A DNA stretch of 64,000 nt from Candidatus Methylomirabilota bacterium. GTDB taxonomy: Bacteria; Methylomirabilota; Methylomirabilia; Rokubacteriales; CSP1-6. Shown here in pieces: positions 33,240 through 62,258 of the stretch (position 1 is the first letter of the stretch; every line of letters begins with the position of its first letter). The position numbers and the translations under genes are program-made. The DNA lies in the NCBI GenBank assembly GCA_035936835.1, contig DASYVT010000113.1:8072-72071 (forward strand). The letters are read 5' to 3'. Below the pieces are notes generated by a model. The model searched no databases and was not told the origin of the DNA. It saw only the letters and a program-made list of their open reading frames with translations.

Positions 33240-33329
33240 CCTGGACCCCCTTGTGGTGAATGAGACGGATAGCATACCCGGAGCGCCGATGCTAGTCTTG
33301 GGCCCCGACAGCTCGATGGAGGGGATGAC

Positions 33330-34799
33330 ATGGCGAGAGTGAAGTTCCCATATGCGTGGCGCAGGTGGGGGGCCCCGGGGTTCGTCCTGGCGTTCGTAAC
33401 TCTCCTTGCCTCCCATGGCGCGGCTCAGCAACCGCCTGCCCGCGAGGCGGAGCAGCACGACATGCGGCTCCTTGCCCACGACGATCTCCAGGGCCGCTCG
33501 GCCTACCAGCCCGTCATCCATCACCAGGGCAATCGCTGGATCGCCTACGTCGGCCATCACGGCGGTACGCGGCTCAATCCGCTCACGGGCCAGGTCGAGC
33601 GGAACGGCACCTCCATCGTGGATGTGACGGACCCGCGCCGCGCCCGCTACCTCCACCACATTCCGGGCGCCTCCGGCGAGGCGGAGGCGGGTGGGGCATC
33701 GATGGTCCGGGTGTGCGACGGCAAGACACTTCCCCGTGGAACGGCCGAGAAAACGTATCTTCTTCGCACCCTCGGCAACCTCGCCCACGAGGTCTGGGAC
33801 GTCAGCGACCCTGCCCGTCCGGCATTCCTCACCACGGTGGTCTCCGGCCTCGACGCCACGCACAAGAACTGGTGGGAGTGCGACACGGGCATCGCCTACC
33901 TCGTCTCCGACGGGCGGCCCGCCGGCTGGCGAACCCATCGCATGACCAAGATTTACGATCTTTCCGATCCCGCGCAGCCGCGCTTCATTCGCGACTTCGG
34001 GCTCGTGGGTCAGGAGCCGGGGTCGACCGGGCCGGCGCCGGAGGGCGTGCACGGGCCCATCGCCTACCGGAAGCGCGTCTACTTCGCCTATGGCACGGGC
34101 GCGGACGGCGCGCTGCAGATCGTGGATCGCGACAAGCTCCTGGCCGGCGACCCGGGCGCCGCCGACCGGTTCGCGCCCACCAGGGAGAATCTCCTCTACC
34201 CGCAGGTGGGACGCCTCGACATGTCGCCCGCGTGGGGCGGGCACACGAGCTTCCCCATCCTGGGCGTGCCCATCACCGACAGGACGGGCGACGCCAAAGG
34301 GCAGGTGCGGGACTTCGTGCTGCTCGTCTCCGAGTCGCTCCGCAACGAGTGTCAGGAGTTTCGCCAGCTCACCTTCCTGGTGGACGTCACCACGGAGGCG
34401 CGCCCCTTCTCCGTCTCGACCTTCGAGGTGCCCGCCAACCCGGGCGACTTCTGCCGCCGGGGCGGGCGGTTCGGGCCGCATTCGAGCAGCGAGTCATTCA
34501 CGCCGATCTACCATGGCCGGCTCGTCTTCATCGCGTACTTCAACGCGGGCGTGCGCGCCGTGGACATCCGCGATCCCTTCCACCCGCGCGAGGTCGCGTA
34601 CTTCATCCCGGCGGCAACGGCCAATACCGACAAGCGCTGTGTCAAGGTGAATGGCGCCGACCGCTGCAAGGTCGCCATCCAGACCAACAATGTCGAGGTG
34701 GACGACCGTGGGCTCGTCTATCTCGCCGATCGCGCGAACACGGGAGTGCACATCGTGGAGCTCAGCGGGGCGGCGCGCGCCATCGCGCGCAAGCCCTAG
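33330..34799 (+). CDS. Secreted beta-propeller-like protein (LVIVD-repeat-like)
   Basis: Signal peptide and repeated hydrophobic-Asp beta-strand motifs (GLVYLADRANTGVHIVE). Family assignment is tentative. Confidence 0.55.
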   Translation: MARVKFPYAWRRWGAPGFVLAFVTLLASHGAAQQPPAREAEQHDMRLLAHDDLQGRSAYQPVIHHQGNRWIAYVGHHGGTRLNPLTGQVERNGTSIVDVTDPRRARYLHHIPGASGEAEAGGASMVRVCDGKTLPRGTAEKTYLLRTLGNLAHEVWDVSDPARPAFLTTVVSGLDATHKNWWECDTGIAYLVSDGRPAGWRTHRMTKIYDLSDPAQPRFIRDFGLVGQEPGSTGPAPEGVHGPIAYRKRVYFAYGTGADGALQIVDRDKLLAGDPGAADRFAPTRENLLYPQVGRLDMSPAWGGHTSFPILGVPITDRTGDAKGQVRDFVLLVSESLRNECQEFRQLTFLVDVTTEARPFSVSTFEVPANPGDFCRRGGRFGPHSSSESFTPIYHGRLVFIAYFNAGVRAVDIRDPFHPREVAYFIPAATANTDKRCVKVNGADRCKVAIQTNNVEVDDRGLVYLADRANTGVHIVELSGAARAIARKP

Positions 34800-49077: not shown

Positions 49078-49241
49078 AGGACCTAATATCGTAGACCCAG
49101 GGGCCGCCCATGCCCCAAGGAAAAGGGACGCTTAGGGGCCGGCCAGATCGGGAGGCCCGGGAGTTCACAGCCGCGTGACACGGCTCCCGGCGAACCTGTT
49201 AGCATCGAAGGTGAGTCTCACCACCAGGGAGGCCACAACGC

Positions 49242-50210
49242 ATGCTCGTCAGGCGCGATAGCGACAGAAGGCTCCGCGGAGAGGGCATCCCCTCCCGGGA
49301 GATCACAGACCACGGGGTGTACCTCAACCGCCGGGCCTTCATGACAGGCGCCGCGGCGCTGGCGCTCCTGCCCTGGGGCCGGGAGGCATTCGCCCAGGGC
49401 GCTCTCGAGCCGCTCCAGGCCTCGAAGAGCGCTGCCTATCAGGTGCAGGACGCGCTGACCCCGTACAAGAGCGTGACGACCTACAACAACTTCTACGAGT
49501 TCGGCACCGACAAGGGCGACCCTGCGGCCCATGGCGCGTCGCTCAAGACCCGCCCGTGGACCCTCAAGGTGGACGGGCTCTGCGCCAAGCCCAAGACCTT
49601 CGACATCGACGAGCTGCTCAAGTTCCCGCTCGAAGAGCGTGTCTACCGCCTGCGCTGCGTCGAGGCCTGGTCCATGATCATCCCGTGGATCGGCTTCCCG
49701 CTCTCCGCCCTGCTCAAGCGGGTCGAGCCCACGGGGCAGGCCAAGTACGTGGAGTTCACCACGCTCGTCAACCCGAAAATGTTCCCCGGCCAGAAGCGCG
49801 GGCTCTTCGGCTTCGTGATCGACTGGCCGTACACGGAAGGGCTGCGCCTCGACGAGGCGATGCACCCGCTGACGCTCATGACGGTCGGCCTGTACGGCCA
49901 GGTGCTGCCCAACCAGAACGGCGCGCCGATTCGCGTGGTCGTGCCATGGAAGTACGGCTTCAAGAGCGCCAAGTCGCTGGTGCACATCCGGTTCACGTCC
50001 GAGGAGCCCAAGACCTCCTGGAACAAGGCGTCGCCCGACGAGTACGGCTTCTACTCGAACGTCAACCCCCAGATCAGCCACCCGCGCTGGAGCCAGGCGA
50101 CCGAGCGGCGCATCGGCGAGCTGCGGCGCCGCGATACGCTCATGTTCAACGGCTACGCCGACCAGGTCGCGTCGCTCTACAGCGGGATGGACCTCAAGAA
50201 AGCCTTCTAG
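49242..50210 (+). CDS. msrP: Protein-methionine-sulfoxide reductase catalytic subunit MsrP (YedY)
   Basis: Tat signal ([13 protein letters not shown]) and a sulfite-oxidase-fold MoCo domain. Confidence 0.9.
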
Positions 50211-50217
50211 ACGCCCA

Positions 50218-50868
50218 ATGGGCTACCGGGTTCGCGTCGCGCTCAAAGCCGCCGTCTGGATCGGCAGCCTCTGCCCGCTCGGCGTGCTGGTGCGCGGCTT
50301 CCTGACGGACGACCTCGGCGCCAATCCCATCGACTACATCACCCGCACGCTCGGCCTGACGGCCCTCGTGCTGCTGCTGACGAGCCTCGGCATGACACCG
50401 CTCCGCGCGCTCTTCGGCTGGTCCTGGCCGATTCAGATGCGGCGACTGTTCGGGCTCTTCGCCTTCTTCTACGTGTGCCTCCACTTCGCCGTGTGGATCG
50501 GTCTCGACCACTTCTTCGCCTGGCGGCGCATGTGGGAAGACGTGCTCAAGCGCCCGTTCGTCACGGTGGGCATGCTGGCGCTCCTGCTGCTGATCCCGCT
50601 GGCGGCGACCTCCACCTCGGGGATGATCAAGCGGCTGGGCGGGGCCAACTGGCGGCTCCTGCACAAGCTCGCGTACGTGATCGGGGGCCTGGGTGTGCTG
50701 CACTTCCTGTGGCTGGCGAAAAAGGGGCGGACGACGCCGTACTATTTCGCGATCGCGCTGGCGGTCCTGCTGGGCGTGAGGCTCTGGGGCTGGCTGGGCC
50801 GGCGCGCGGCACGCCTCCGGCCGGTGCTGGCTGACGACGGCCGGAACCGGGCGCCCCGGCCGTCGTAG
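50218..50868 (+). CDS. msrQ: Protein-methionine-sulfoxide reductase heme-binding subunit MsrQ (YedZ)
   Basis: Six-TM ferric-reductase-like protein immediately after msrP. Confidence 0.85.
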   Translation: MGYRVRVALKAAVWIGSLCPLGVLVRGFLTDDLGANPIDYITRTLGLTALVLLLTSLGMTPLRALFGWSWPIQMRRLFGLFAFFYVCLHFAVWIGLDHFFAWRRMWEDVLKRPFVTVGMLALLLLIPLAATSTSGMIKRLGGANWRLLHKLAYVIGGLGVLHFLWLAKKGRTTPYYFAIALAVLLGVRLWGWLGRRAARLRPVLADDGRNRAPRPS

Positions 50869-50880
50869 CCCGTCTCGGCG

Positions 50881-51159
50881 CTACTTGGCCGGCGTGTAGT
50901 AGGGGTTGGTGCCCGACGCGTGGTCGGTTGAGTCCAGCACTTCCTCGATCTCGGGCATCTCTTCCTTGATCAGGCGCTCGATGCCGGCCTTGAGCGTCAC
51001 GTCCGCCGCGCCGCACCCCTGGCAGCCGCCGCCCATCTGTATGTAGACCTTCTTGTCCTTCACGTCGACGAGCTGAACGAAGCCGCCGTGCCCCGCCACC
51101 GCGGGGTTGATGGTCGAGTCGATCAGCTCCTGCACCCTGGTCATCAGATCGTCGCTCAT
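50881..51159 (-). CDS. NifU-family Fe-S cluster scaffold (Nfu-type)
   Basis: CxxC motif (GGGCQGCGAA) and a NifU C-terminal domain. Internal ATG start (MSDDLMTRV). Confidence 0.75.
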   Translation of the reverse strand: MSDDLMTRVQELIDSTINPAVAGHGGFVQLVDVKDKKVYIQMGGGCQGCGAADVTLKAGIERLIKEEMPEIEEVLDSTDHASGTNPYYTPAK

Positions 51160-55106: not shown

Positions 55107-55979
55107 ATGCCGAAGCTCAAGAAGCCGCAGGTTGTGGAGACGGCCGCACCCGAGCTGGCGCGGCCCGACTGGATCCTGGTGGCGCTGGCCCTCGTGGGGC
55201 TGGGCGTCGCGGGGTACCTAAGCGCGCTCAAGCTCGGCGGCACCCAGGCCTTCCTCTGCCGGGGCGGCAGCGGCTGCGATCTCGTCCAGGCGAGCCGCTA
55301 TTCGCTGCTGGCCGGCGTGCCGACCGCGATGTGGGGCGCCGGAATCTACCTGGCCATCGCCGTGCTCGCCGCGATGCCGCGGACCGCGCGCCGCTGGCAG
55401 GCGGCCTTCATGCTGGTTTCCGGCGCCGTCGCCTTTTCCCTCTACCTGACGTACATCTCGATCTTCGTCATCGGCGCGACCTGCCCGTACTGCCTAGGCT
55501 CGGGCGGGATCTCCGTGGCGCTCCTCGTGGCCATGCTGTGGCGGCGCCCACCGGCGCAGGGCCGGCAGGCCGCGGTCTACAAGCCCGGCAGGCTGGCGGC
55601 GCTCGGGATCACCGCGGGCATCTTCACCGTCGTCTTCGGCGCCTTCATCTTCGCCGCCGACTTCTCGGTGCCGGCCGGCTACCAGTCCGCGCTCGCCCAG
55701 CACCTGGCGAAGAGTCAGGGCATCTTCTACGGCGCCTTCTGGTGACCCGCGTGCACAGAGCAAAAGGCCCGGTTCGGGTCTGCCGCGCGAGAGCTTCCGT
55801 ACATCGAGTGCGATCCCAAGGGCGTCAACCCGCGCCAGGATCTCTGTGAGAAGGTGCCCGTGCGCTCCTATCCGACCTGGGTGATCGACGGGCAGAAATA
55901 CGAGGGCGTCATGTCCCTCGACAGGCTGGCCGAGCTGTCGAAGTTCCGCTACGCCACGCCGACTGCGGCAAAGCCGTGA
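55107..55979 (+). CDS. Vitamin K epoxide reductase (VKOR)-thioredoxin-like fusion with an in-frame TGA at 55743-55745 in the position of the Trx first active-site Cys (FYGAFW-U-PAC). Candidate selenoprotein, or alternatively a Cys-to-stop pseudogene.
   Basis: VKOR loop Cys pair (CRGGSGC) and TM CPYC. Downstream, in the same frame across the TGA: the FYGAxW(C)xxC motif, cis-Pro (SYPTWVIDG) 43 residues later, and a stop overlapping the next gene start (GTGA). A GC-rich hairpin lies 20-40 nt after the TGA. Confidence 0.6.
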
Positions 55980-57646
55980 CAGGGGCCGAGCTCTCCTCGC
56001 TGATGGCGGGCCCGAGCCCGCACGCGGTCCTCGACCTGCGCGAGCGGGCCGCGTACGCGGGCGGCCATATCTTCCGGGCCACCAATTTGCCGCGCTGCCT
56101 CCTCGAGTTCCGGCTGTTCCAGCTGGTGACGGCCAAGCGCACTCCGATAGTTCTCTGCGATGCGGACGGGCGGCTCGCGGCCCTGGCGTTGCCCGCGGTG
56201 CGCGCCATGGGCTTCACCGACGTGCGGGTGCTCGACGGCGGCCTCGAGGCGTGGCGCCGCGAGGGGCGCGGGACGATCACCGGCATCAACGTGCCGAGCA
56301 AGGCCTTCGGCGAGTGGGCGCTCCACACGCTGCGCACGCCGCAGATCCCGCCGCATGAGCTCCAGGCGTGGATCGACGGCGGCCGCGACATGGTCATCGT
56401 GGACTCGCGGACGCCCGAAGAATACGCGCGCGGCTGCATCCCCGGGGCCTGGAGCATGCCGGGGGGCGAGCTCATGCTGCGGATCGGCGAGCTGGCGAAG
56501 AGCCCCAAGACGACCATCGTTGTCCACTGCGGCGGCCGGACGCGGAGCTACATCGGCGCCGAGTCGCTTCGCCGTATGGGGCTGCCCAATCCCATCGTCG
56601 CGCTCGAGAACGGCACAATGGGCTGGGAGCTGGCCGGGCTGACCCTCGAGCGCGGCGCCGACCGCCGCGTGGCGGAGGTTTCCGAGGCGAGCCGGAAGCG
56701 CGCGGCGGCCGCGGCTTTGCTGATCGCGAAGGACGACGGCATCGCCTCGATCGCGCCGGCCGCGCTCGAAGCGCTCTGGGCCCGTCGCGCCGAGGAGAAC
56801 GTGGCGCTCCTCGACGTGCGCACGCGCGAGGAGTACGAGGAGGGTCACGTGGCGGGCGCCACCTGGGCGCCCGGCGGCCAGGCCGTCCAGGCGACCGATG
56901 AGTACATCGCCGTCCGCGCCGCGCGGGTGGTGCTGGTCTGCGACGGCGCGGGGCGGTCGACCATGACCGCCGCGTGGCTCAAGCGCATGGGGATGCCCGA
57001 GGTCTCCGTCCTGGCGGGCGGCCTGCCCGCGTGGAAGGCGGGCGGCGGCGCTGTCGAAACCGGCCACCCGGATCCCGAGCCCTGGGGTTATGTTGCAGCG
57101 CGAGCCGCCGTCGGCACGCTCGGCCCCGTCGAGCTCTTGGCCGCTCTCGGCGGCGCGCAGGCGCCACCCGCTCCCGCGAAGGCTCTCCCCGCTCCCGCGA
57201 AGGCTCTCCCCGCCCCCGCGAAGGCTCCCCCCGCCCCCGCGAAGGCTCCAATGGTCCTGAGCGTGGACCAGAGCGACGTGTATGCGCGCGGCCACGTGCC
57301 GGGCGCGGCGTGGCTCTGCCGGAGCCGCCTCGAATGGAAGGCGCCCCAGGCGCTGTCCGACCGCGCGCAGGCGCTCGTCCTCACGTGCCGCGACGGGCGC
57401 CACTCGACGCTTGCCGCCGCCGCGCTCGCGCGGCTCGGGTATGCGTCGGTCCGCGTGCTCGAGGGCGGCACCCAGGCCTGGGAGCGCAAGGGGCTGGCGC
57501 TCGAGACGGGCAAGACCCTGCTCCTCGACGAGACCGACGACGTCGTGCTCAAGCCCTACGAGAAGGGCCGCGAAGCCATGGAGGCGTATCTGAAATGGGA
57601 AGTCGATCTCGACCCCGCCGCCCTCGACGCCGCGCGGTCAAAGTAG
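55976..57646 (+). CDS. Multi-domain rhodanese sulfurtransferase (4 tandem rhodanese domains, 3 with catalytic Cys)
   Basis: Catalytic loops HCGGRTRS, VCDGAGRS and TCRDGRHS. PAPAKA-type repeat linker. Confidence 0.85.
   Translation: MTGAELSSLMAGPSPHAVLDLRERAAYAGGHIFRATNLPRCLLEFRLFQLVTAKRTPIVLCDADGRLAALALPAVRAMGFTDVRVLDGGLEAWRREGRGTITGINVPSKAFGEWALHTLRTPQIPPHELQAWIDGGRDMVIVDSRTPEEYARGCIPGAWSMPGGELMLRIGELAKSPKTTIVVHCGGRTRSYIGAESLRRMGLPNPIVALENGTMGWELAGLTLERGADRRVAEVSEASRKRAAAAALLIAKDDGIASIAPAALEALWARRAEENVALLDVRTREEYEEGHVAGATWAPGGQAVQATDEYIAVRAARVVLVCDGAGRSTMTAAWLKRMGMPEVSVLAGGLPAWKAGGGAVETGHPDPEPWGYVAARAAVGTLGPVELLAALGGAQAPPAPAKALPAPAKALPAPAKAPPAPAKAPMVLSVDQSDVYARGHVPGAAWLCRSRLEWKAPQALSDRAQALVLTCRDGRHSTLAAAALARLGYASVRVLEGGTQAWERKGLALETGKTLLLDETDDVVLKPYEKGREAMEAYLKWEVDLDPAALDAARSK
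57170..57250 (+). repeat. 21-nt tandem repeat x4 (GCyCCCGCGAAGGCTCyCCCC), encoding an (A)PAPAKA linker inside the rhodanese gene
   Basis: Direct repeats read from the sequence. Confidence 0.7.
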
Positions 57647-57705
57647 CCCGGAAGGCGAAGCGCCCCGCGCGCTCCGCGAAGCGCCGGCCGGCGCGCGCGA
57701 AGCCG

Positions 57706-58596
57706 GTGCGGCTCAAGGCGCCCGGCGCCCTCGTCAGCACCGAGTGGCTGGCCGCCCACCTGTTAGAGCCTCGCGGGGGCGCGGCTGAGCCTCGCGGGGG
57801 CGCGGCTGGCCCGCGCGTGCGCGTCCTGGACGGGACGTGGCACATGCCCCAGCTCCAGCGCGATCCCCGGCGCGAGTTCGAGGACGCGCACATCCCGGGC
57901 GCGGCCTTCTTCGACATCGACGGCATCGCCGACCGCGCGAGCCTGCTTCCCCACATGCTGCCGGGCGCGGCCCAGTTTGCCCGCCAGGTGGGCGCGCTCG
58001 GCATCTCGAACGCCGACCTGGTGGTGGTCTACGACGCGCGGGGAGTGGTCAGCGCCGCGCGAGTCTGGTGGACCTTCCGCGCCTTCGGCCATGACCGGGT
58101 TGCCGTGCTCGACGGGGGCCTGCGCAAGTGGCGGGCAGAAGGGCGGCCCGTCGAGTCGGGCCCCGCGACGCCTGCGCCGCGGCGATTTACCGCGCGGCGC
58201 AGGCTTGCGCTCGTGCGCGACCTCGGGCAGATGCGGCGCAACATGGAAAGCCGCCGCGAGCAGACGCTTGACGCCAGATCGCGCGGCCGCTTCGCCGGCA
58301 CCGAGCCCGAGCCGCGCGCGGGACTGCGCGGCGGCCACATTCCGGGCAGCCTGAACCTGCCGTACGACATGCTCTACCGCCCCGACGCCACGCTCCTGCC
58401 GCCCGACGGGCTCCGCCAGGCTTTCGCCGCAGCCGCCGTGGATCTGGGCAAGCCCGTCGCGACGACGTGCGGCTCGGGCATCACGGCCTCGGTGCTGGCG
58501 CTTGGACTGCATCTCATCGGCCACAAAAAGGTCGCGGTGTATGACGGCTCGTGGACAGAGTGGGCCGGCCGCTCCGACACCCCCGTCGAACCCTAG
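57706..58596 (+). CDS. sseA: 3-mercaptopyruvate / thiosulfate sulfurtransferase (two-domain rhodanese, SseA-like)
   Basis: Motif LVSTEWLAAHL...VRVLDGTWHMP and catalytic CGSGITAS. GTG start at 57706 is inferred. The track ORF (56974) is an over-extension overlapping the previous gene. Contains a 21-nt x2 repeat (EPRGGAA). Confidence 0.8.
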   Translation: MRLKAPGALVSTEWLAAHLLEPRGGAAEPRGGAAGPRVRVLDGTWHMPQLQRDPRREFEDAHIPGAAFFDIDGIADRASLLPHMLPGAAQFARQVGALGISNADLVVVYDARGVVSAARVWWTFRAFGHDRVAVLDGGLRKWRAEGRPVESGPATPAPRRFTARRRLALVRDLGQMRRNMESRREQTLDARSRGRFAGTEPEPRAGLRGGHIPGSLNLPYDMLYRPDATLLPPDGLRQAFAAAAVDLGKPVATTCGSGITASVLALGLHLIGHKKVAVYDGSWTEWAGRSDTPVEP

Positions 58597-58607
58597 GAGG
58601 CTTTGTT

Positions 58608-59168
58608 ATGACGGCGTATACGCTCAAGCAGTTCGTGGACCACCTCGACGCCATCACCGCCGCGGAAGGCGATCCGGCGGTGATCACGGCGAAGGCGGCG
58701 CCGCTCCTGAAGCGACTGTGTCTGAACCCCGACGCCCTCCCGGCCGAGTACCGCACGGCGCCCGCGGGGCAGCGCGGCCGCTACCTGCTCCACCGCGCCC
58801 CGCGCTTCAACGTCACGTCCGTGATCTGGCGCCCGGGCGACGAGGCGGGATCCCACGACCACGAGACCTGGGGGCTGGTCGGCGTCGTGGAGAACGAGAT
58901 ACAGGAGACGCGCTACACGTCAGCCGGCACACGCGACCTCGGCGGCAAGATCACCCTCAAGGTCAAGGAAGTCTTCCACCACAAGGCCGGCGCGGTCTCC
59001 ACGCTCGTTCCGCCCCACGACGAGATCCACGCCATGTACAACCCGACCAAGCGGGATACGGTCGAGATCCACGTCTACGGCAAAGACCTCGCGGGGCTCC
59101 AGCGCCACACCTTCGACAGGGACGGCACGGTCAAGTCCCTCGTCAGCTCCAAGTACATGAATTGCTGA
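58608..59168 (+). CDS. Cysteine dioxygenase type I family cupin (thiol dioxygenase)
   Basis: CDO-family motif (VIWRPGDEAGSHDHETWGLVGVVEN) and metal His ligands. GGAGG RBS. Confidence 0.75.
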   Translation: MTAYTLKQFVDHLDAITAAEGDPAVITAKAAPLLKRLCLNPDALPAEYRTAPAGQRGRYLLHRAPRFNVTSVIWRPGDEAGSHDHETWGLVGVVENEIQETRYTSAGTRDLGGKITLKVKEVFHHKAGAVSTLVPPHDEIHAMYNPTKRDTVEIHVYGKDLAGLQRHTFDRDGTVKSLVSSKYMNC

Positions 59169-60925: not shown

Positions 60926-61573
60926 CTACCGGGCCGCCGCGGGAGCCTGGCAGAGCGCCACGCCGATCATGGCATCGCGGGTGACGAGCGCCGCCAGCTC
61001 GGCATCCGAGAGCCCCTCGGTGCCTTCGGGGCGCAGCGGCAGCACCATGTAGCGGATCTCGGCGCTCGAATCCCAGACGCGGATCTCGGTGTCGGGCGGC
61101 AGCTCGACGCCGAACTCGACCAGAATCTTGCGCGGCTCGAGGACGGCCCGCGAGCGATAGGCGGGCGACTTGTACCAGACGGGCGGGAGTCCGAGCACGA
61201 TCCACGGGTAGCAGGAGCAGAGCGTGCAGACGACCAAGTTGTGAACGGCGGGCATGTTGTGACCGGGGGGCATGTTGTGGACGACGGGCGTGTTCTCGTG
61301 GACGACCAACTTGTCCCCGCCGCCGCGCCCGGTGAAGCCCAGCTCCGCGATGGCCGCCGTGCCGTCGGTGAGGAGCCGTTGCTTGTACGCCGGATCGACC
61401 CAGGCGCGGGCGACGACCCTGGCGCCGTTCATCGGCCCGACGTCCTTCTCGTAGGTCTGCACGACCGTGTCCACCACCTCGGTGGACAGCAGGCCCTTCT
61501 CGATCAGGAGCGACTCGATCGCGCGCACGCGATGGACCACCCAGGGCTCGGGCTCGGTATGATGGCTGCCCAT
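60926..61573 (-). CDS. nthA: Nitrile hydratase alpha subunit (Co-type, CTLCSC)
   Basis: Metal-binding motif [22 protein letters not shown] (the Thr variant indicates the cobalt type). Conserved N-terminus. The ATG follows the beta stop after 1 nt. Confidence 0.9.
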
Positions 61574-61574
61574 C

Positions 61575-62258
61575 TCAGGCCTCCAGCGGCTGGAGATAAC
61601 TTTCCCAGAGATCGATGTACACGCGCTCCTTCGGCTCCGCGGCGTCTCCCCACAGCTCGCCCGACTCGAAACGCACGCTGTAGAGCGGCTCGGGGCAGCG
61701 GCCGCGCCCGTGCGCATGGGCGTCCGGCAGTATGTAGACGCCGTGGATCGTGTGGATGCGCCCACAGTGCCCGCGAGCATAGCCCGGCAAGCGCGTGTGG
61801 CCGGCCGGCTGCCAATTGCGCGTGACGACGGCATCGCCCGGCTTGAAGCGCGGCGTGGGATTGGGCTCGCTCTTCTCGGCCATGCCCTTGCGTACCACGT
61901 TCATCACCGTGGCGAGAAGCTCCGGGTCCTTGCGATCCGGCAGCGGGGCGTTCAGGTTCCGCTCGAAGTGCTTGGTCCGCGCGTCGAGCTCGTCGCGGCC
62001 GATGACGCCCTTCTCGATCAGCAGGGTTTCGACCGAGGCGAGCCAGTGCTCGTAGTAGCTCGTGTCGAGGTAGCGCGCCTGTCCCATGCGCTCGATGGCG
62101 TGACGGAACTCGTCGATATTGTAGATTCGCTTGACCATGCCGACCAGGTTCATCACGAGCACGGCCTTTTCCCAATCCGCGTGGAAGGCGGGCTCGTTCG
62201 GCTCGCGTTCGATGGGGCCGAAACCATGCTTGCCGCCGAGGTCGTGGACGCCGTTCAT
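61575..62258 (-). CDS. nthB: Nitrile hydratase beta subunit
   Basis: N-terminus [15 protein letters not shown]...[16 protein letters not shown]-terminus GVYILPD...[16 protein letters not shown]. Confidence 0.9.

What the first reader, a model, noticed from the sequence alone, without database searches (positions are those of the whole stretch)
55107..55979. In-frame TGA at the first Cys of the thioredoxin CxxC motif in a VKOR-Trx fusion: candidate selenocysteine-containing VKOR
The VKOR domain is complete, with its loop Cys pair (CRGGSGC) and CPYC. Its frame continues across a single TGA at 55743-45 into a canonical thioredoxin-like domain. The stop sits exactly where VKOR-Trx fusions and Dsb proteins carry the first Cys of FYGAxWCxxC; here it reads FYGAFW-TGA-PAC. 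A cis-Pro motif (SYPTWVIDG) follows 43 residues later, the spacing expected for a Trx fold. The combined ORF then ends with a stop overlapping the next gene start (GTGA), as expected for a functional full-length gene. A GC-rich stem-loop (GCA-aaa-GGCCCG-guu-CGGGUC-UGC, with flanking CGCG pairing) lies 20-40 nt after the UGA, where bacterial SECIS elements sit. Cys-to-Sec substitution at the resolving position of CxxC is the classic selenoprotein signature. I am not aware of VKOR among the listed bacterial selenoprotein families. The alternative is a recent TGC-to-TGA nonsense mutation (pseudogene).
Basis: partly seen in the sequence, partly recalled or inferred. Interest (0 to 1): 0.82.

Follow-up and report, generated by a model that had tools for sequence, protein, structure and literature searches.

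The report
Selenocysteine-containing VKOR–thioredoxin fusion gene
The "stop" codon inside this membrane enzyme gene is almost certainly read as selenocysteine, so a disulfide-bond-forming VKOR–thioredoxin protein of soil Methylomirabilota (and of Nitrospirota relatives) is a selenoprotein that public annotation truncates and that a 2026 inventory of selenoprotein families does not list.

Summary
ORF 55107-55979 encodes a complete VKOR domain, a fifth membrane helix and a thioredoxin-like domain, interrupted only by TGA at 55743-55745. That codon aligns with Cys209, the first Cys of the Trx CxxC in the crystallised Synechococcus VKOR-Trx fusion.

The pseudogene alternative is rejected:
- All 87 related loci examined (65-92% identity) have TGA here, never TAA, TAG or TGY.
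- The 72-78 downstream codons are intact wherever the contig extends.
- dN/dS is 0.24 downstream against 0.26 upstream.
- P214, A215 and C216 directly after the TGA are invariant.

A 17-nt hairpin (55765-55781; 7 bp, GUU loop, 26 nt after UGA) meets the published bSECIS constraints. It holds the only invariant 4/6-fold-degenerate codons of the gene. Folding energy in context and formal covariation are not significant.

A second clade, largely Nitrospirota, has the same TGA with a different hairpin closer to the UGA. Sec machinery is not in the window. Support for it is at phylum level only, from the literature.

GenBank annotates the 212-aa truncation. A 2026 inventory of 119 prokaryotic selenoprotein families has no VKOR entry. 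Verdict: a real, apparently unlisted selenoprotein family of the familiar UxxC thioredoxin-fold kind.

The parts
55107..55979 (+). Full-length VKOR-Trx(U) gene, 290 codons including Sec213, plus the stop codon. GenBank annotates only codons 1-212 (HEV2055317.1).
   Evidence: end-to-end alignment (residues 23-279) to Synechococcus VKOR-Trx PDB 3KP9/4NV2, E 4e-41
55170..55532 (+). VKOR core domain (residues 22-142, four membrane helices).
   Evidence: Pfam PF07884, E 1.1e-24, 87.5 bits against cutoff 27.5
55257..55277 (+). Loop cysteine pair C51...C57 (CRGGSGC), the shuttle cysteines. They align with Synechococcus Cys50/Cys56.
   Evidence: C51 in 60/61 unique sequences (the 61st has a gap in this column) and C57 in 61/61
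55482..55493 (+). Quinone-site CxxC (C126-P-Y-C129) in membrane helix 4. It aligns with Synechococcus Cys130/Cys133.
55593..55661 (+). Fifth membrane helix / linker (about residues 163-185) that places the Trx domain outside the cytoplasm. Boundaries are approximate.
   Evidence: alignment to 3KP9; topology inferred from the solved homolog
55743..55745 (+). In-frame UGA, the proposed Sec213 and first position of the U-P-A-C redox motif (55743-55754).
   Evidence: TGA in 87/87 related loci and in distant clades; aligns with Cys209 of 3KP9
55765..55781 (+). SECIS-like hairpin AGGCCCG-GUU-CGGGUCU: 7 bp, 3-nt loop beginning GU, loop 26 nt after the UGA.
   Evidence: consensus fold. -9.2 kcal/mol in isolation. 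Codons +7 to +11 are invariant at the nucleotide level in 61 unique sequences, and the only 3 invariant codons among 91 conserved 4/6-fold columns lie here. Pair 25:37 occurs as G-U, G-C and A-U.
55748..55789 (+). Extended lower stem (CGCGUG...CGCGCG) seen in the window's MFE fold. It is not conserved in relatives and is probably not part of the element.
55689..55946 (+). Thioredoxin-like domain (residues 195-280). It contains U213, C216, the cysteines C235 and C247 (invariant and conserved in the Synechococcus homolog; their pairing as a disulfide was not tested) and cis-Pro P256 (55872-55874).
   Evidence: PDB 3KP8 (isolated Trx-like domain), E 5.5e-23. Pfam Trx models fall below cutoff. The residues are invariant.
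55976..57646 (+). Downstream gene for a protein with four rhodanese domains. Its GTG start overlaps the VKOR-Trx stop (GTGA), suggesting translational coupling.
   Evidence: the same gene follows in 15+ relatives at offset +234
57640..58596 (+). Gene for a 3-mercaptopyruvate-sulfurtransferase-like protein with two rhodanese domains (start approximate). In most relatives it directly follows VKOR-Trx.

Best explanation
The gene encodes one 290-residue integral membrane protein, a bacterial VKOR (DsbB-type quinone-dependent disulfide generator) fused through a fifth membrane helix to an extracytoplasmic thioredoxin-like domain. The exposed nucleophilic cysteine of that domain's CxxC motif is replaced by selenocysteine, giving U213-P-A-C216.

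During translation, UGA 55743-55745 is decoded by SelB with Sec-tRNA(Sec). SelB is recruited by the 17-nt hairpin at 55765-55781, which lies inside the coding sequence.

By analogy with the solved Synechococcus enzyme, the electron path is inferred as follows. Electrons from substrate thiols pass to the U213-C216 selenylsulfide. They then go to loop cysteines C51/C57, then to C126/C129, and finally to a membrane quinone. Sec would make the exchange steps faster. The dipeptide change from CPHC to UPAC fits a residue that no longer needs His to keep it deprotonated.

Shown here: the gene architecture, the Cys/Sec pair, conservation of the UGA, purifying selection downstream, and an RNA-level constraint on the hairpin.

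Inferred: actual Se incorporation, SelB binding, membrane topology and the direction of electron flow.
For: 1. Sec/Cys pair. The UGA aligns with Cys209 of Synechococcus VKOR-Trx (3KP9/4NV2; E 4e-41 over residues 23-279). It also aligns with Cys in Leptolyngbya and in many ~290-aa representatives.

2. Conservation of the stop. More than 120 clusters at 80-93% identity all end at ...FYGAFW, mostly 212 aa long. At the DNA level 87/87 loci have TGA, never TAA, TAG or TGY, while the true terminal stop varies between TGA and TAA.

3. The downstream region is translated in this frame. The 72-78 codons are open in every locus that extends that far. Median dN/dS is 0.24 downstream against 0.26 upstream. 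P214, A215 and C216 immediately after the UGA are invariant. C235, C247 and P256 are invariant or nearly so. The next in-frame start codon lies 37 codons later.

4. The hairpin meets the four published bSECIS constraints quoted.
- Loop 3-9 nt: GUU.
- Stem 4-16 bp: 7 bp.
- G followed by G or U at the start of the loop: yes.
- Spacing 16-37 nt: 26 nt.
- MFE at or below -7.5 kcal/mol: -9.2.

5. RNA-level constraint. Codons AAG GCC CGG TTC GGG are identical in 61 unique sequences. Of 91 amino-acid-conserved 4/6-fold-degenerate columns only 3 have an invariant codon, and all 3 are in the hairpin (1/C(91,3), about 8e-6).

6. An independent U-clade, largely Nitrospirota, has the same UGA but a different hairpin. 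It reads GAACAGA-AGGA-UCUGUUC and starts 12 nt after the UGA.

7. The closest Cys-form relative (L172, 48% identity) lacks the hairpin.

8. Code reassignment is excluded. TGA terminates this gene and about half of the window's ORFs. No other coding-flanked TGA exists in the window.

9. Sec use in the phylum. A Methylomirabilota MAG is predicted to have 63 selenoprotein genes (PMC13188914). Sec-type [NiFeSe] hydrogenases occur in Methylomirabilota (PMC13582414).

10. In L167 a U-form VKOR-Trx sits next to a MoeB/ThiF-type gene with an in-frame TGA in the motif ..GLVPS-U-NEAGVLGV. MoeB is a listed selenoprotein family.
Against: - No selA, selB, selD or tRNA-Sec is present in the 64-kb window or in the about 320 kb of related loci examined. 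Sec capacity of this particular organism is therefore unverified.
- No Rfam family matches.
- The hairpin is not more stable than shuffled sequence in context (z +0.96; about -0.3 to -0.7). Some Cys-form homologs fold as well or better at the same place.
- Formal covariation is not significant, with no pair changed on both sides relative to the commonest pair.
- 7% of all TGA triplets in this GC-rich window are followed by a hairpin passing a simplified bSECIS filter. 2.6% have one at least as good as the target.
- The loop lies 7 nt further from the UGA than in E. coli fdhF (from my own knowledge of that element).
- There is no experimental evidence of Se incorporation.
Confidence: 0.88

Rival explanations
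1. Recent TGC-to-TGA nonsense mutation: a pseudogene or truncated VKOR followed by a decaying Trx remnant.
For: Gene callers and GenBank stop at the TGA (212-aa HEV2055317.1). Stand-alone VKORs without a fused Trx domain exist among the homologs.
Against: TGA is fixed in 87/87 loci spanning 65-92% identity and in two deep clades. The downstream frame is intact everywhere it can be read, with dN/dS 0.24 equal to the upstream value. The redox residues P214, A215 and C216 are invariant.
Confidence: 0.01
2. Two genes: translation terminates at the UGA and the Trx part is made separately by re-initiation, or only the hairpin matters, for example as a terminator or attenuator.
For: Small ORFs of 41-69 aa are called downstream by some pipelines.
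Against: No in-frame ATG, GTG or TTG occurs between the TGA and codon 250 in the window. Any restart would lose both redox residues, yet P214-A215-C216 are invariant. Exclusive use of TGA is unexplained, since a plain stop should drift to TAA or TAG as the real terminal stop does. The hairpin is not followed by a T run.
Confidence: 0.02
3. The UGA is recoded, but not to Sec. Either it is read as Cys by a SelB-dependent tRNA(ReC)/selC*-type tRNA, or it is read through by a near-cognate Trp or Cys tRNA.
For: tRNA(ReC) (selC*) is described as enabling such decoding, and PMC13582414 searched for it in genomes encoding Sec-type hydrogenases. My data cannot tell which amino acid is inserted.
Against: A Cys outcome could be obtained by a single TGA-to-TGY change, yet none of 87 loci has one. 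The correlated change of CPHC to UPAC (68 of about 72 U-forms against mostly PH in Cys forms) suggests a chemically different residue. Methylomirabilota are reported as rich in selenoproteins.
Confidence: 0.05
4. UGA is a sense codon in this organism (reassigned genetic code).
For: None beyond the in-frame TGA itself.
Against: TGA ends this same gene in most relatives and about half of the high-GC3 ORFs in the window. Only one TGA in 64 kb has coding signal on both sides.
Confidence: 0.005

Closest known systems
Synechococcus sp. VKOR-thioredoxin fusion ('VKORC1/thioredoxin domain protein', PDB 3KP9, 4NV2, 4NV5, 4NV6; isolated Trx-like domain 3KP8)
   Same: Same architecture over the whole length: four-helix VKOR core, a loop Cys pair, a CxxC in helix 4, a fifth helix, and a Trx-like domain with the motifs FYGAxW-CxxC, YVEC and SYPTW. 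E 4e-41 over residues 23-279. It presumably uses the same electron relay to quinone (inferred).
   Different: Cys209 is replaced by UGA (Sec). The dipeptide is PA instead of PH. A conserved RNA hairpin is embedded in the codons for K-A-R-F-G-S. About 35-40% identity.
UxxC thioredoxin-fold bacterial selenoproteins (Trx, Grx, DsbA-like form 1, DsbG-like, thiol:disulfide interchange protein; PMC13188914 Table 1)
   Same: Sec sits at the first position of the redox motif of a Trx fold. A Cys-containing homolog exists. A bSECIS-type hairpin lies just downstream within the coding sequence.
   Different: Those are free-standing proteins. Here the Sec domain is covalently fused to the membrane enzyme that reoxidises it. 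No VKOR or PF07884 entry appears among the 119 listed families. No NCBIfam selenoprotein model hits.
DsbB/DsbA and stand-alone bacterial VKOR (e.g. the Mycobacterium tuberculosis type)
   Same: Functional analog: quinone-linked generation of disulfides for extracytoplasmic protein folding (established knowledge).
   Different: DsbB is not homologous. The partner oxidoreductase is a separate protein. All are Cys-based.
E. coli fdhF SECIS
   Same: A short upper stem-loop with an unpaired G-U in the apical loop, located within the coding sequence downstream of the UGA.
   Different: From my own knowledge, the E. coli element starts 11 nt after the UGA, with G23/U24 and a bulged U17. Here the stem starts 19 nt after the UGA, GU is at nt 30-31 and there is no bulge. 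The Nitrospirota-type hairpin (12-nt spacer, loop at nt 23-26) is closer to the E. coli geometry.

Membership tests
VKOR family (Pfam PF07884) | Profile match above the curated cutoff | tested here: met
   87.5 bits against cutoff 27.5, E 1.1e-24, residues 22-142
VKOR family (Pfam PF07884) | Four catalytic cysteines: a loop pair plus a CxxC in the last core helix | tested here: met
   C51, C57, C126 and C129 align with Synechococcus C50, C56, C130 and C133. They are invariant in 61 unique relatives.
VKOR-Trx fusion (Synechococcus type) | Extra membrane helix plus a C-terminal Trx-like domain homologous to 3KP8, with a cis-Pro | tested here: met
   Residues 195-279 against 3KP8, E 5.5e-23. Full length against 3KP9, E 4e-41. 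SYPTW is conserved.
VKOR-Trx fusion (Synechococcus type) | CxxC in the Trx-like domain | tested here: not met
   The first Cys codon is TGA (UxxC if Sec is inserted). The second Cys, C216, is present. This is the point of difference, so the gene is filed as a Sec variant.
Thioredoxin Pfam families (PF00085, PF13192) | Profile match above the curated cutoff | tested here: not met
   15.7 bits against 23.5 and 18.1 bits against 24.8, even with Cys substituted. The fold assignment rests on homology to the solved 3KP8 domain.
Bacterial selenoprotein | In-frame UGA aligned with Cys in homologs (Sec/Cys pair) | tested here: met
Bacterial selenoprotein | UGA-containing homologs in other organisms, with the downstream sequence under purifying selection | tested here: met
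   87/87 TGA. dN/dS 0.24 downstream. Distant clades also carry it.
Bacterial selenoprotein | bSECIS consensus: loop 3-9 nt, stem 4-16 bp, G in the first two loop positions, 16-37 nt from the UGA, MFE at or below -7.5 kcal/mol (PMC13188914) | tested here: met
   7-bp stem, GUU loop, 26-nt spacing, -9.2 kcal/mol. Background rate is 7% of TGA triplets in this window.
Bacterial selenoprotein | Evolutionary support for the RNA structure | tested here: inconclusive
   Strong synonymous-site invariance. Pair 25:37 is seen as G-U, G-C and A-U. The covariation measures do not exceed shuffles. A second clade has a different hairpin at a similar place.
Bacterial selenoprotein | selA, selB, selC and selD in the same genome | not testable with these tools
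   None in the window or in related loci. The rest of the MAG could not be fetched. Only phylum-level reports are available.
Bacterial selenoprotein | Selenium in the protein (75Se labelling or mass spectrometry) | not testable with these tools
   An experiment is required.

The most novel reading that the evidence does not exclude
The UGA acts as a selenium-dependent switch between two functional isoforms. With Se, the product is a self-contained VKOR-Trx(U) oxidase whose selenylsulfide gives faster exchange chemistry. Without Se, termination releases a five-helix stand-alone VKOR of 212 residues that works with a separate partner, as stand-alone VKORs do. The conserved operon with rhodanese sulfurtransferases might further link the enzyme to sulfane-sulfur or selenium trafficking rather than to general protein folding.
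Probability: 0.15. Interest if true: 0.7.

Novelty: new member of a known kind. Interest (0 to 1): 0.55.

Why it matters
It would add the disulfide-generating VKOR–thioredoxin enzyme to the bacterial selenoproteome. As far as the literature searched here shows, it would be the first Sec residue in the DsbB/VKOR oxidative-folding pathway. It would sit on a membrane protein, in a domain predicted to face outside the cytoplasm.

It also exposes a systematic annotation error. Hundreds of database entries from Methylomirabilota and Nitrospirota are recorded as roughly 180-245-residue (mostly 212- or about 238-residue) 'VKOR family' or 'uncharacterized membrane' proteins that lack their catalytic partner domain.

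Natural U-P-A-C and C-P-H-C pairs of the same enzyme offer a clean system for asking what selenium contributes to a thiol oxidase, as opposed to a reductase.

Because these lineages are abundant in soils, the gene may tie envelope protein folding to selenium availability.

Tried and rejected
- **Rfam.** A scan of the whole window at gathering threshold and of 55600-55950 at E up to 10 found nothing relevant.
- **Folding energy as evidence.** The 68-nt and 45-nt contexts are no more stable than shuffles. Cys-form homologs are sometimes more structured. I dropped this as an argument. Only the isolated 17-mer stands out (z -2.8).
- **Covariation.** The count on 26 diverse U-form sequences was not significant.
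- **Sec machinery.** ARAGORN on the window and on 53 loci found no tRNA. Pfam on 40 window ORFs found no SelA, SelB or SelD.
- **Other selenoprotein genes.** A scan for coding-flanked TGA found only the target in the window. In 318 kb of relatives it found only the MoeB-like gene of L167. The other hits were ordinary adjacent genes in the same frame.
- **Literature.**
  - Searches for a Sec-containing VKOR found only ferroptosis papers.
  - The deep-Sep paper has no VKOR mention.
  - The Haft & Tolstoy 2025 paper (PMC12013261) is not held in the library.
  - The groundwater paper with the 63-selenoprotein Methylomirabilota MAG (Deng et al. 2026) was not found in a library search, so their gene lists could not be checked.
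- **Split rhodanese idea.** I considered that the downstream rhodanese might be split by a TGA in L001. It is not. L001 simply lacks the four-rhodanese gene.
Full report
**Observation**

An ORF starts at ATG 55107 and runs to TGA 55977-55979, with a single in-frame TGA at 55743-55745. Translation gives:
- a VKOR core with the loop pair C51/C57 (CRGGSGC) and the membrane CxxC C126-PY-C129;
- a further hydrophobic segment;
- ...GIFYGAFW-*-PACTEQKARFG...YIEC...LCEK...SYPTWVIDG...

The terminal TGA overlaps the GTG start of the next gene. Pfam scores the VKOR domain at 87.5 bits against a cutoff of 27.5. The Pfam thioredoxin models stay below their cutoffs.

The window has 70% G+C. The frame downstream of the TGA keeps the coding signature, with codon-position GC of 0.63/0.47/0.83. 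This is the only TGA in 64 kb, on either strand, with such a signature and an open frame on both sides.

**Identity of the protein**

With Cys substituted for the stop, residues 23-279 align end to end with the crystallised Synechococcus 'VKORC1/thioredoxin domain protein' (3KP9, 4NV2, 4NV5, 4NV6; E 4e-41). Residues 195-279 align with its isolated Trx-like domain (3KP8; E 5.5e-23).

The residue correspondences in that alignment are:

| Window | Synechococcus |
|---|---|
| C51 / C57 | C50 / C56 |
| C126 / C129 | C130 / C133 |
| TGA (213) | Cys209 |
| C216 | Cys212 |

Cys209 is the N-terminal, exposed cysteine of the Trx CxxC. One deposited variant (4NV6) carries C212A (visible). From general knowledge of Trx-fold proteins, such a mutation traps mixed disulfides formed by the N-terminal cysteine. 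The replaced residue is the nucleophilic one, which is the usual place for Sec in UxxC selenoproteins.

**Is the stop a lesion?**

No. A search of 5.8 billion proteins returned more than 120 clusters at 80-93% identity. Nearly all are exactly 212 residues long and end ...FYGA[FY]W.

I fetched DNA for 7 genome or assembly loci and 80 metagenome loci at 65-92% identity.
- All 87 have TGA at this codon, with no TAA, TAG, TGC or TGT.
- Every locus that extends far enough has an uninterrupted 72-78-codon continuation in frame.
- The genuine terminal stop, by contrast, varies between TGA and TAA.

Nei-Gojobori dN/dS against the window has a median of 0.26 for the 180 codons upstream and 0.24 for the codons downstream. 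P214, A215 and C216 directly follow the TGA and precede any possible restart codon. They are invariant in 61 unique sequences, as are C235 and C247 (P256 in 60 of 61).

These results exclude a pseudogene and a split gene. A reassigned code is also excluded, because TGA terminates this gene and about half of the window's ORFs.

The three GTDB species representatives carrying the gene are Candidatus Methylomirabilota or Rokuibacteriota MAGs. The window's own 212-aa product is GenBank HEV2055317.1, 'vitamin K epoxide reductase family protein [Methylomirabilota bacterium]'. The public annotation is therefore the truncated form.

**The RNA element**

The consensus fold of 34 sequences is a 7-bp stem with a GUU loop, AGGCCCG-GUU-CGGGUCU. 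It occupies nt 23-39 counted from the U of UGA, which is window 55765-55781.

It satisfies the published bSECIS constraints quoted in PMC13188914.

| Constraint | Required | Found |
|---|---|---|
| Apical loop | 3-9 nt | 3 nt (GUU) |
| Upper stem | 4-16 bp | 7 bp |
| Loop start | G then G or U in the first positions | G then U |
| Spacing from UGA to loop | 16-37 nt | 26 nt |
| MFE | at or below -7.5 kcal/mol | -9.2 kcal/mol |

This filter is permissive in GC-rich DNA. 7.1% of the 1331 TGA triplets in the window pass a simplified version, and 2.6% have a hairpin at least as good.

The surrounding 45-68 nt are no more stable than shuffled sequence. No Rfam model matches. The formal covariation test is not significant.

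The real evidence is constraint at synonymous sites:
- Codons +7 to +11 (AAG GCC CGG TTC GGG) are identical in all 61 unique sequences.
- Among 91 amino-acid-conserved columns with 4- or 6-fold-degenerate codons, only three have an invariant codon. All three lie in the stem (about 8e-6 by chance).
- Pair 25:37 occurs as G-U, G-C and A-U.
- The closest Cys-form relative found (L172, 48% identity, CPHC) has no such hairpin.

**Breadth**

HMMER against 1.84 billion representatives found 18 further 50%-identity representatives that end at ...YGA[FY]W. It also found about 30 full-length (~290-aa) representatives with ...YGAxWCxxC.

DNA for six of the truncated ones (29-51% identity, contig G+C 40-76%) shows TGA plus an in-frame Trx domain in every case.

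One group stands apart:
- 94 of the 120 best hits to P0144 end at the same position. Two more end similarly but miss the strict pattern.
- Its named members include a Nitrospiraceae bacterium (CP070788.1), a Nitrospirae bacterium and Ca. Mariimomonas ferrooxydans.
- It has a different hairpin, GAACAGA-AGGA-UCUGUUC, starting 12 nt after the UGA. The hairpin is identical in the loci read (L165, L174, L175, L176/L177); one, L166, differs by a single loop base. Their G+C ranges from 40 to 61%.

A rough NJ tree places the two U-groups apart among Cys forms. Two independent Cys-to-Sec conversions are therefore possible but not established.

U-forms almost always read U-P-A-C (68 of about 72). Cys forms mostly read C-P-H-C.

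**Sec machinery**

Nothing in the window or in the related loci encodes tRNA-Sec, SelA, SelB or SelD. The rest of the MAG could not be retrieved.

Indirect support is as follows:
- The 2026 review reports a Methylomirabilota MAG with 63 predicted selenoprotein genes.
- Sec-type [NiFeSe] hydrogenases were found in Methylomirabilota.
- The same review mentions Nitrospirae among lineages in which selC overlaps selB.
- In L167 a U-form VKOR-Trx lies beside a rhodanese-MoeB/ThiF-type gene with an in-frame TGA in the motif ..GLVPS-U-NEAGVLGV. MoeB is a listed selenoprotein family.

**Mechanism (inferred)**

By homology with the Synechococcus enzyme, the N-terminus is cytoplasmic and five helices place the Trx domain outside.
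1. The U213-C216 selenylsulfide oxidises substrate thiols.
2. It is re-formed by C51/C57.
3. These pass electrons to C126/C129 and on to quinone.

Sec is deprotonated at neutral pH and is a better nucleophile and leaving group. That fits the loss of the His which, in CPHC oxidases such as DsbA, stabilises the thiolate (established chemistry, not tested here).

Termination at the UGA would yield a five-helix VKOR without its partner domain. Whether that product is used is unknown.

In Methylomirabilota the gene is always followed by rhodanese-domain genes, often with overlapping stop and start codons. The functional meaning is unknown.

**Novelty**

Full-text searches found no paper on a Sec-containing VKOR. 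Table 1 of PMC13188914 (May 2026; 119 prokaryotic selenoprotein families and subfamilies) has no VKOR, 'vitamin K' or PF07884 entry. NCBIfam release 20 has no selenoprotein model that hits this protein. The deep-Sep paper does not mention it.

The gene lists of Deng et al. 2026 and Haft & Tolstoy 2025 could not be read. Prior detection in a supplement therefore cannot be excluded.

The kind, a UxxC Trx-fold selenoprotein with a coding-region bSECIS, is familiar. The family, and the fusion to the membrane oxidase, appears to be new to the lists.

**Verdict**

It is a new member of a known kind, of moderate interest (0.55).

Noticed in passing
L167 minus strand 669-1886 (TGA at about 963-965): A rhodanese-MoeB/ThiF-type gene is split by an in-frame TGA in the motif ..GLVPS-U-NEAGVLGV. 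It lies divergently next to a U-form VKOR-Trx. MoeB is a listed selenoprotein family. Gene callers split it into 307-aa and 90-aa products.
   Followed up: partly
L174 10001-10950 (CP070788.1, Nitrospiraceae), L175, L176/L177, L165, L166: A second, large clade of TGA-containing VKOR-Trx genes, largely Nitrospirota. It has its own near-invariant hairpin GAACAGA-AGGA-UCUGUUC starting 12 nt after the UGA. 94 of the 120 best hits end at YGA[FY]W (two more end similarly).
   Followed up: partly
L174 6595-7911: A gene of the SBP56 selenium-binding-protein family (PF05694) lies two genes upstream of the U-form VKOR-Trx in the Nitrospiraceae genome. This is possibly coincidence.
   Followed up: no
window 55743-55754 and homologs: The redox-motif dipeptide correlates with Sec or Cys. 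U-forms read U-P-A-C (68 of about 72). Cys forms are mostly C-P-H-C, then C-P-R-C and C-S-H-C.
   Followed up: partly
window 55976-59168: A conserved gene order follows VKOR-Trx(U) in Methylomirabilota: a four-rhodanese protein (present in some genomes, absent in others), then a two-rhodanese 3-MST-like protein, then a conserved ~190-aa ORF (58545-59168) with no Pfam hit at E 1e-5.
   Followed up: partly
window 57154-57249: A 21-nt tandem repeat of 4.6 copies (92% match) lies inside the four-rhodanese gene. It encodes a PAPAKA(L/P) linker repeat between rhodanese domains.
   Followed up: partly
L057, L042, L082 (Cys-form homologs from candidate-phyla-radiation bacteria): Some Cys-form homologs have unusually stable RNA structure (z down to -4.1) in the 45 nt after the CxxC codons. 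That is the same place where U-forms carry the SECIS-like hairpin.
   Followed up: no
P0001 (262 aa, JGI contig of 1141 bp): A close relative carries an internal duplication of the helix-3 to helix-4 segment (..CPYCLALAIAVLAAMPRTARRWQ...CPYCLASG..). It may be an assembly artefact or a real duplication.
   Followed up: no
window about 49215-50900 (by synteny with L001 4250-6230): An MsrP/MsrQ-like pair (Oxidored_molyb plus Ferric_reduct) and a NifU-like gene lie about 5 kb upstream of VKOR-Trx. This is another envelope redox-repair function in the neighbourhood. The assignment rests on synteny only.
   Followed up: no
window 33273-34796: A 508-aa high-GC3 ORF has no Pfam match at E 1e-5. It lies upstream of cyclase, cupin and hydrolase genes.
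   Followed up: no
window 60929-61900 (minus strand): A nitrile hydratase alpha ORF of 324 aa matches the 184-position profile in two stretches. It sits within an NHase alpha/beta cluster that is syntenic with L001.
   Followed up: no
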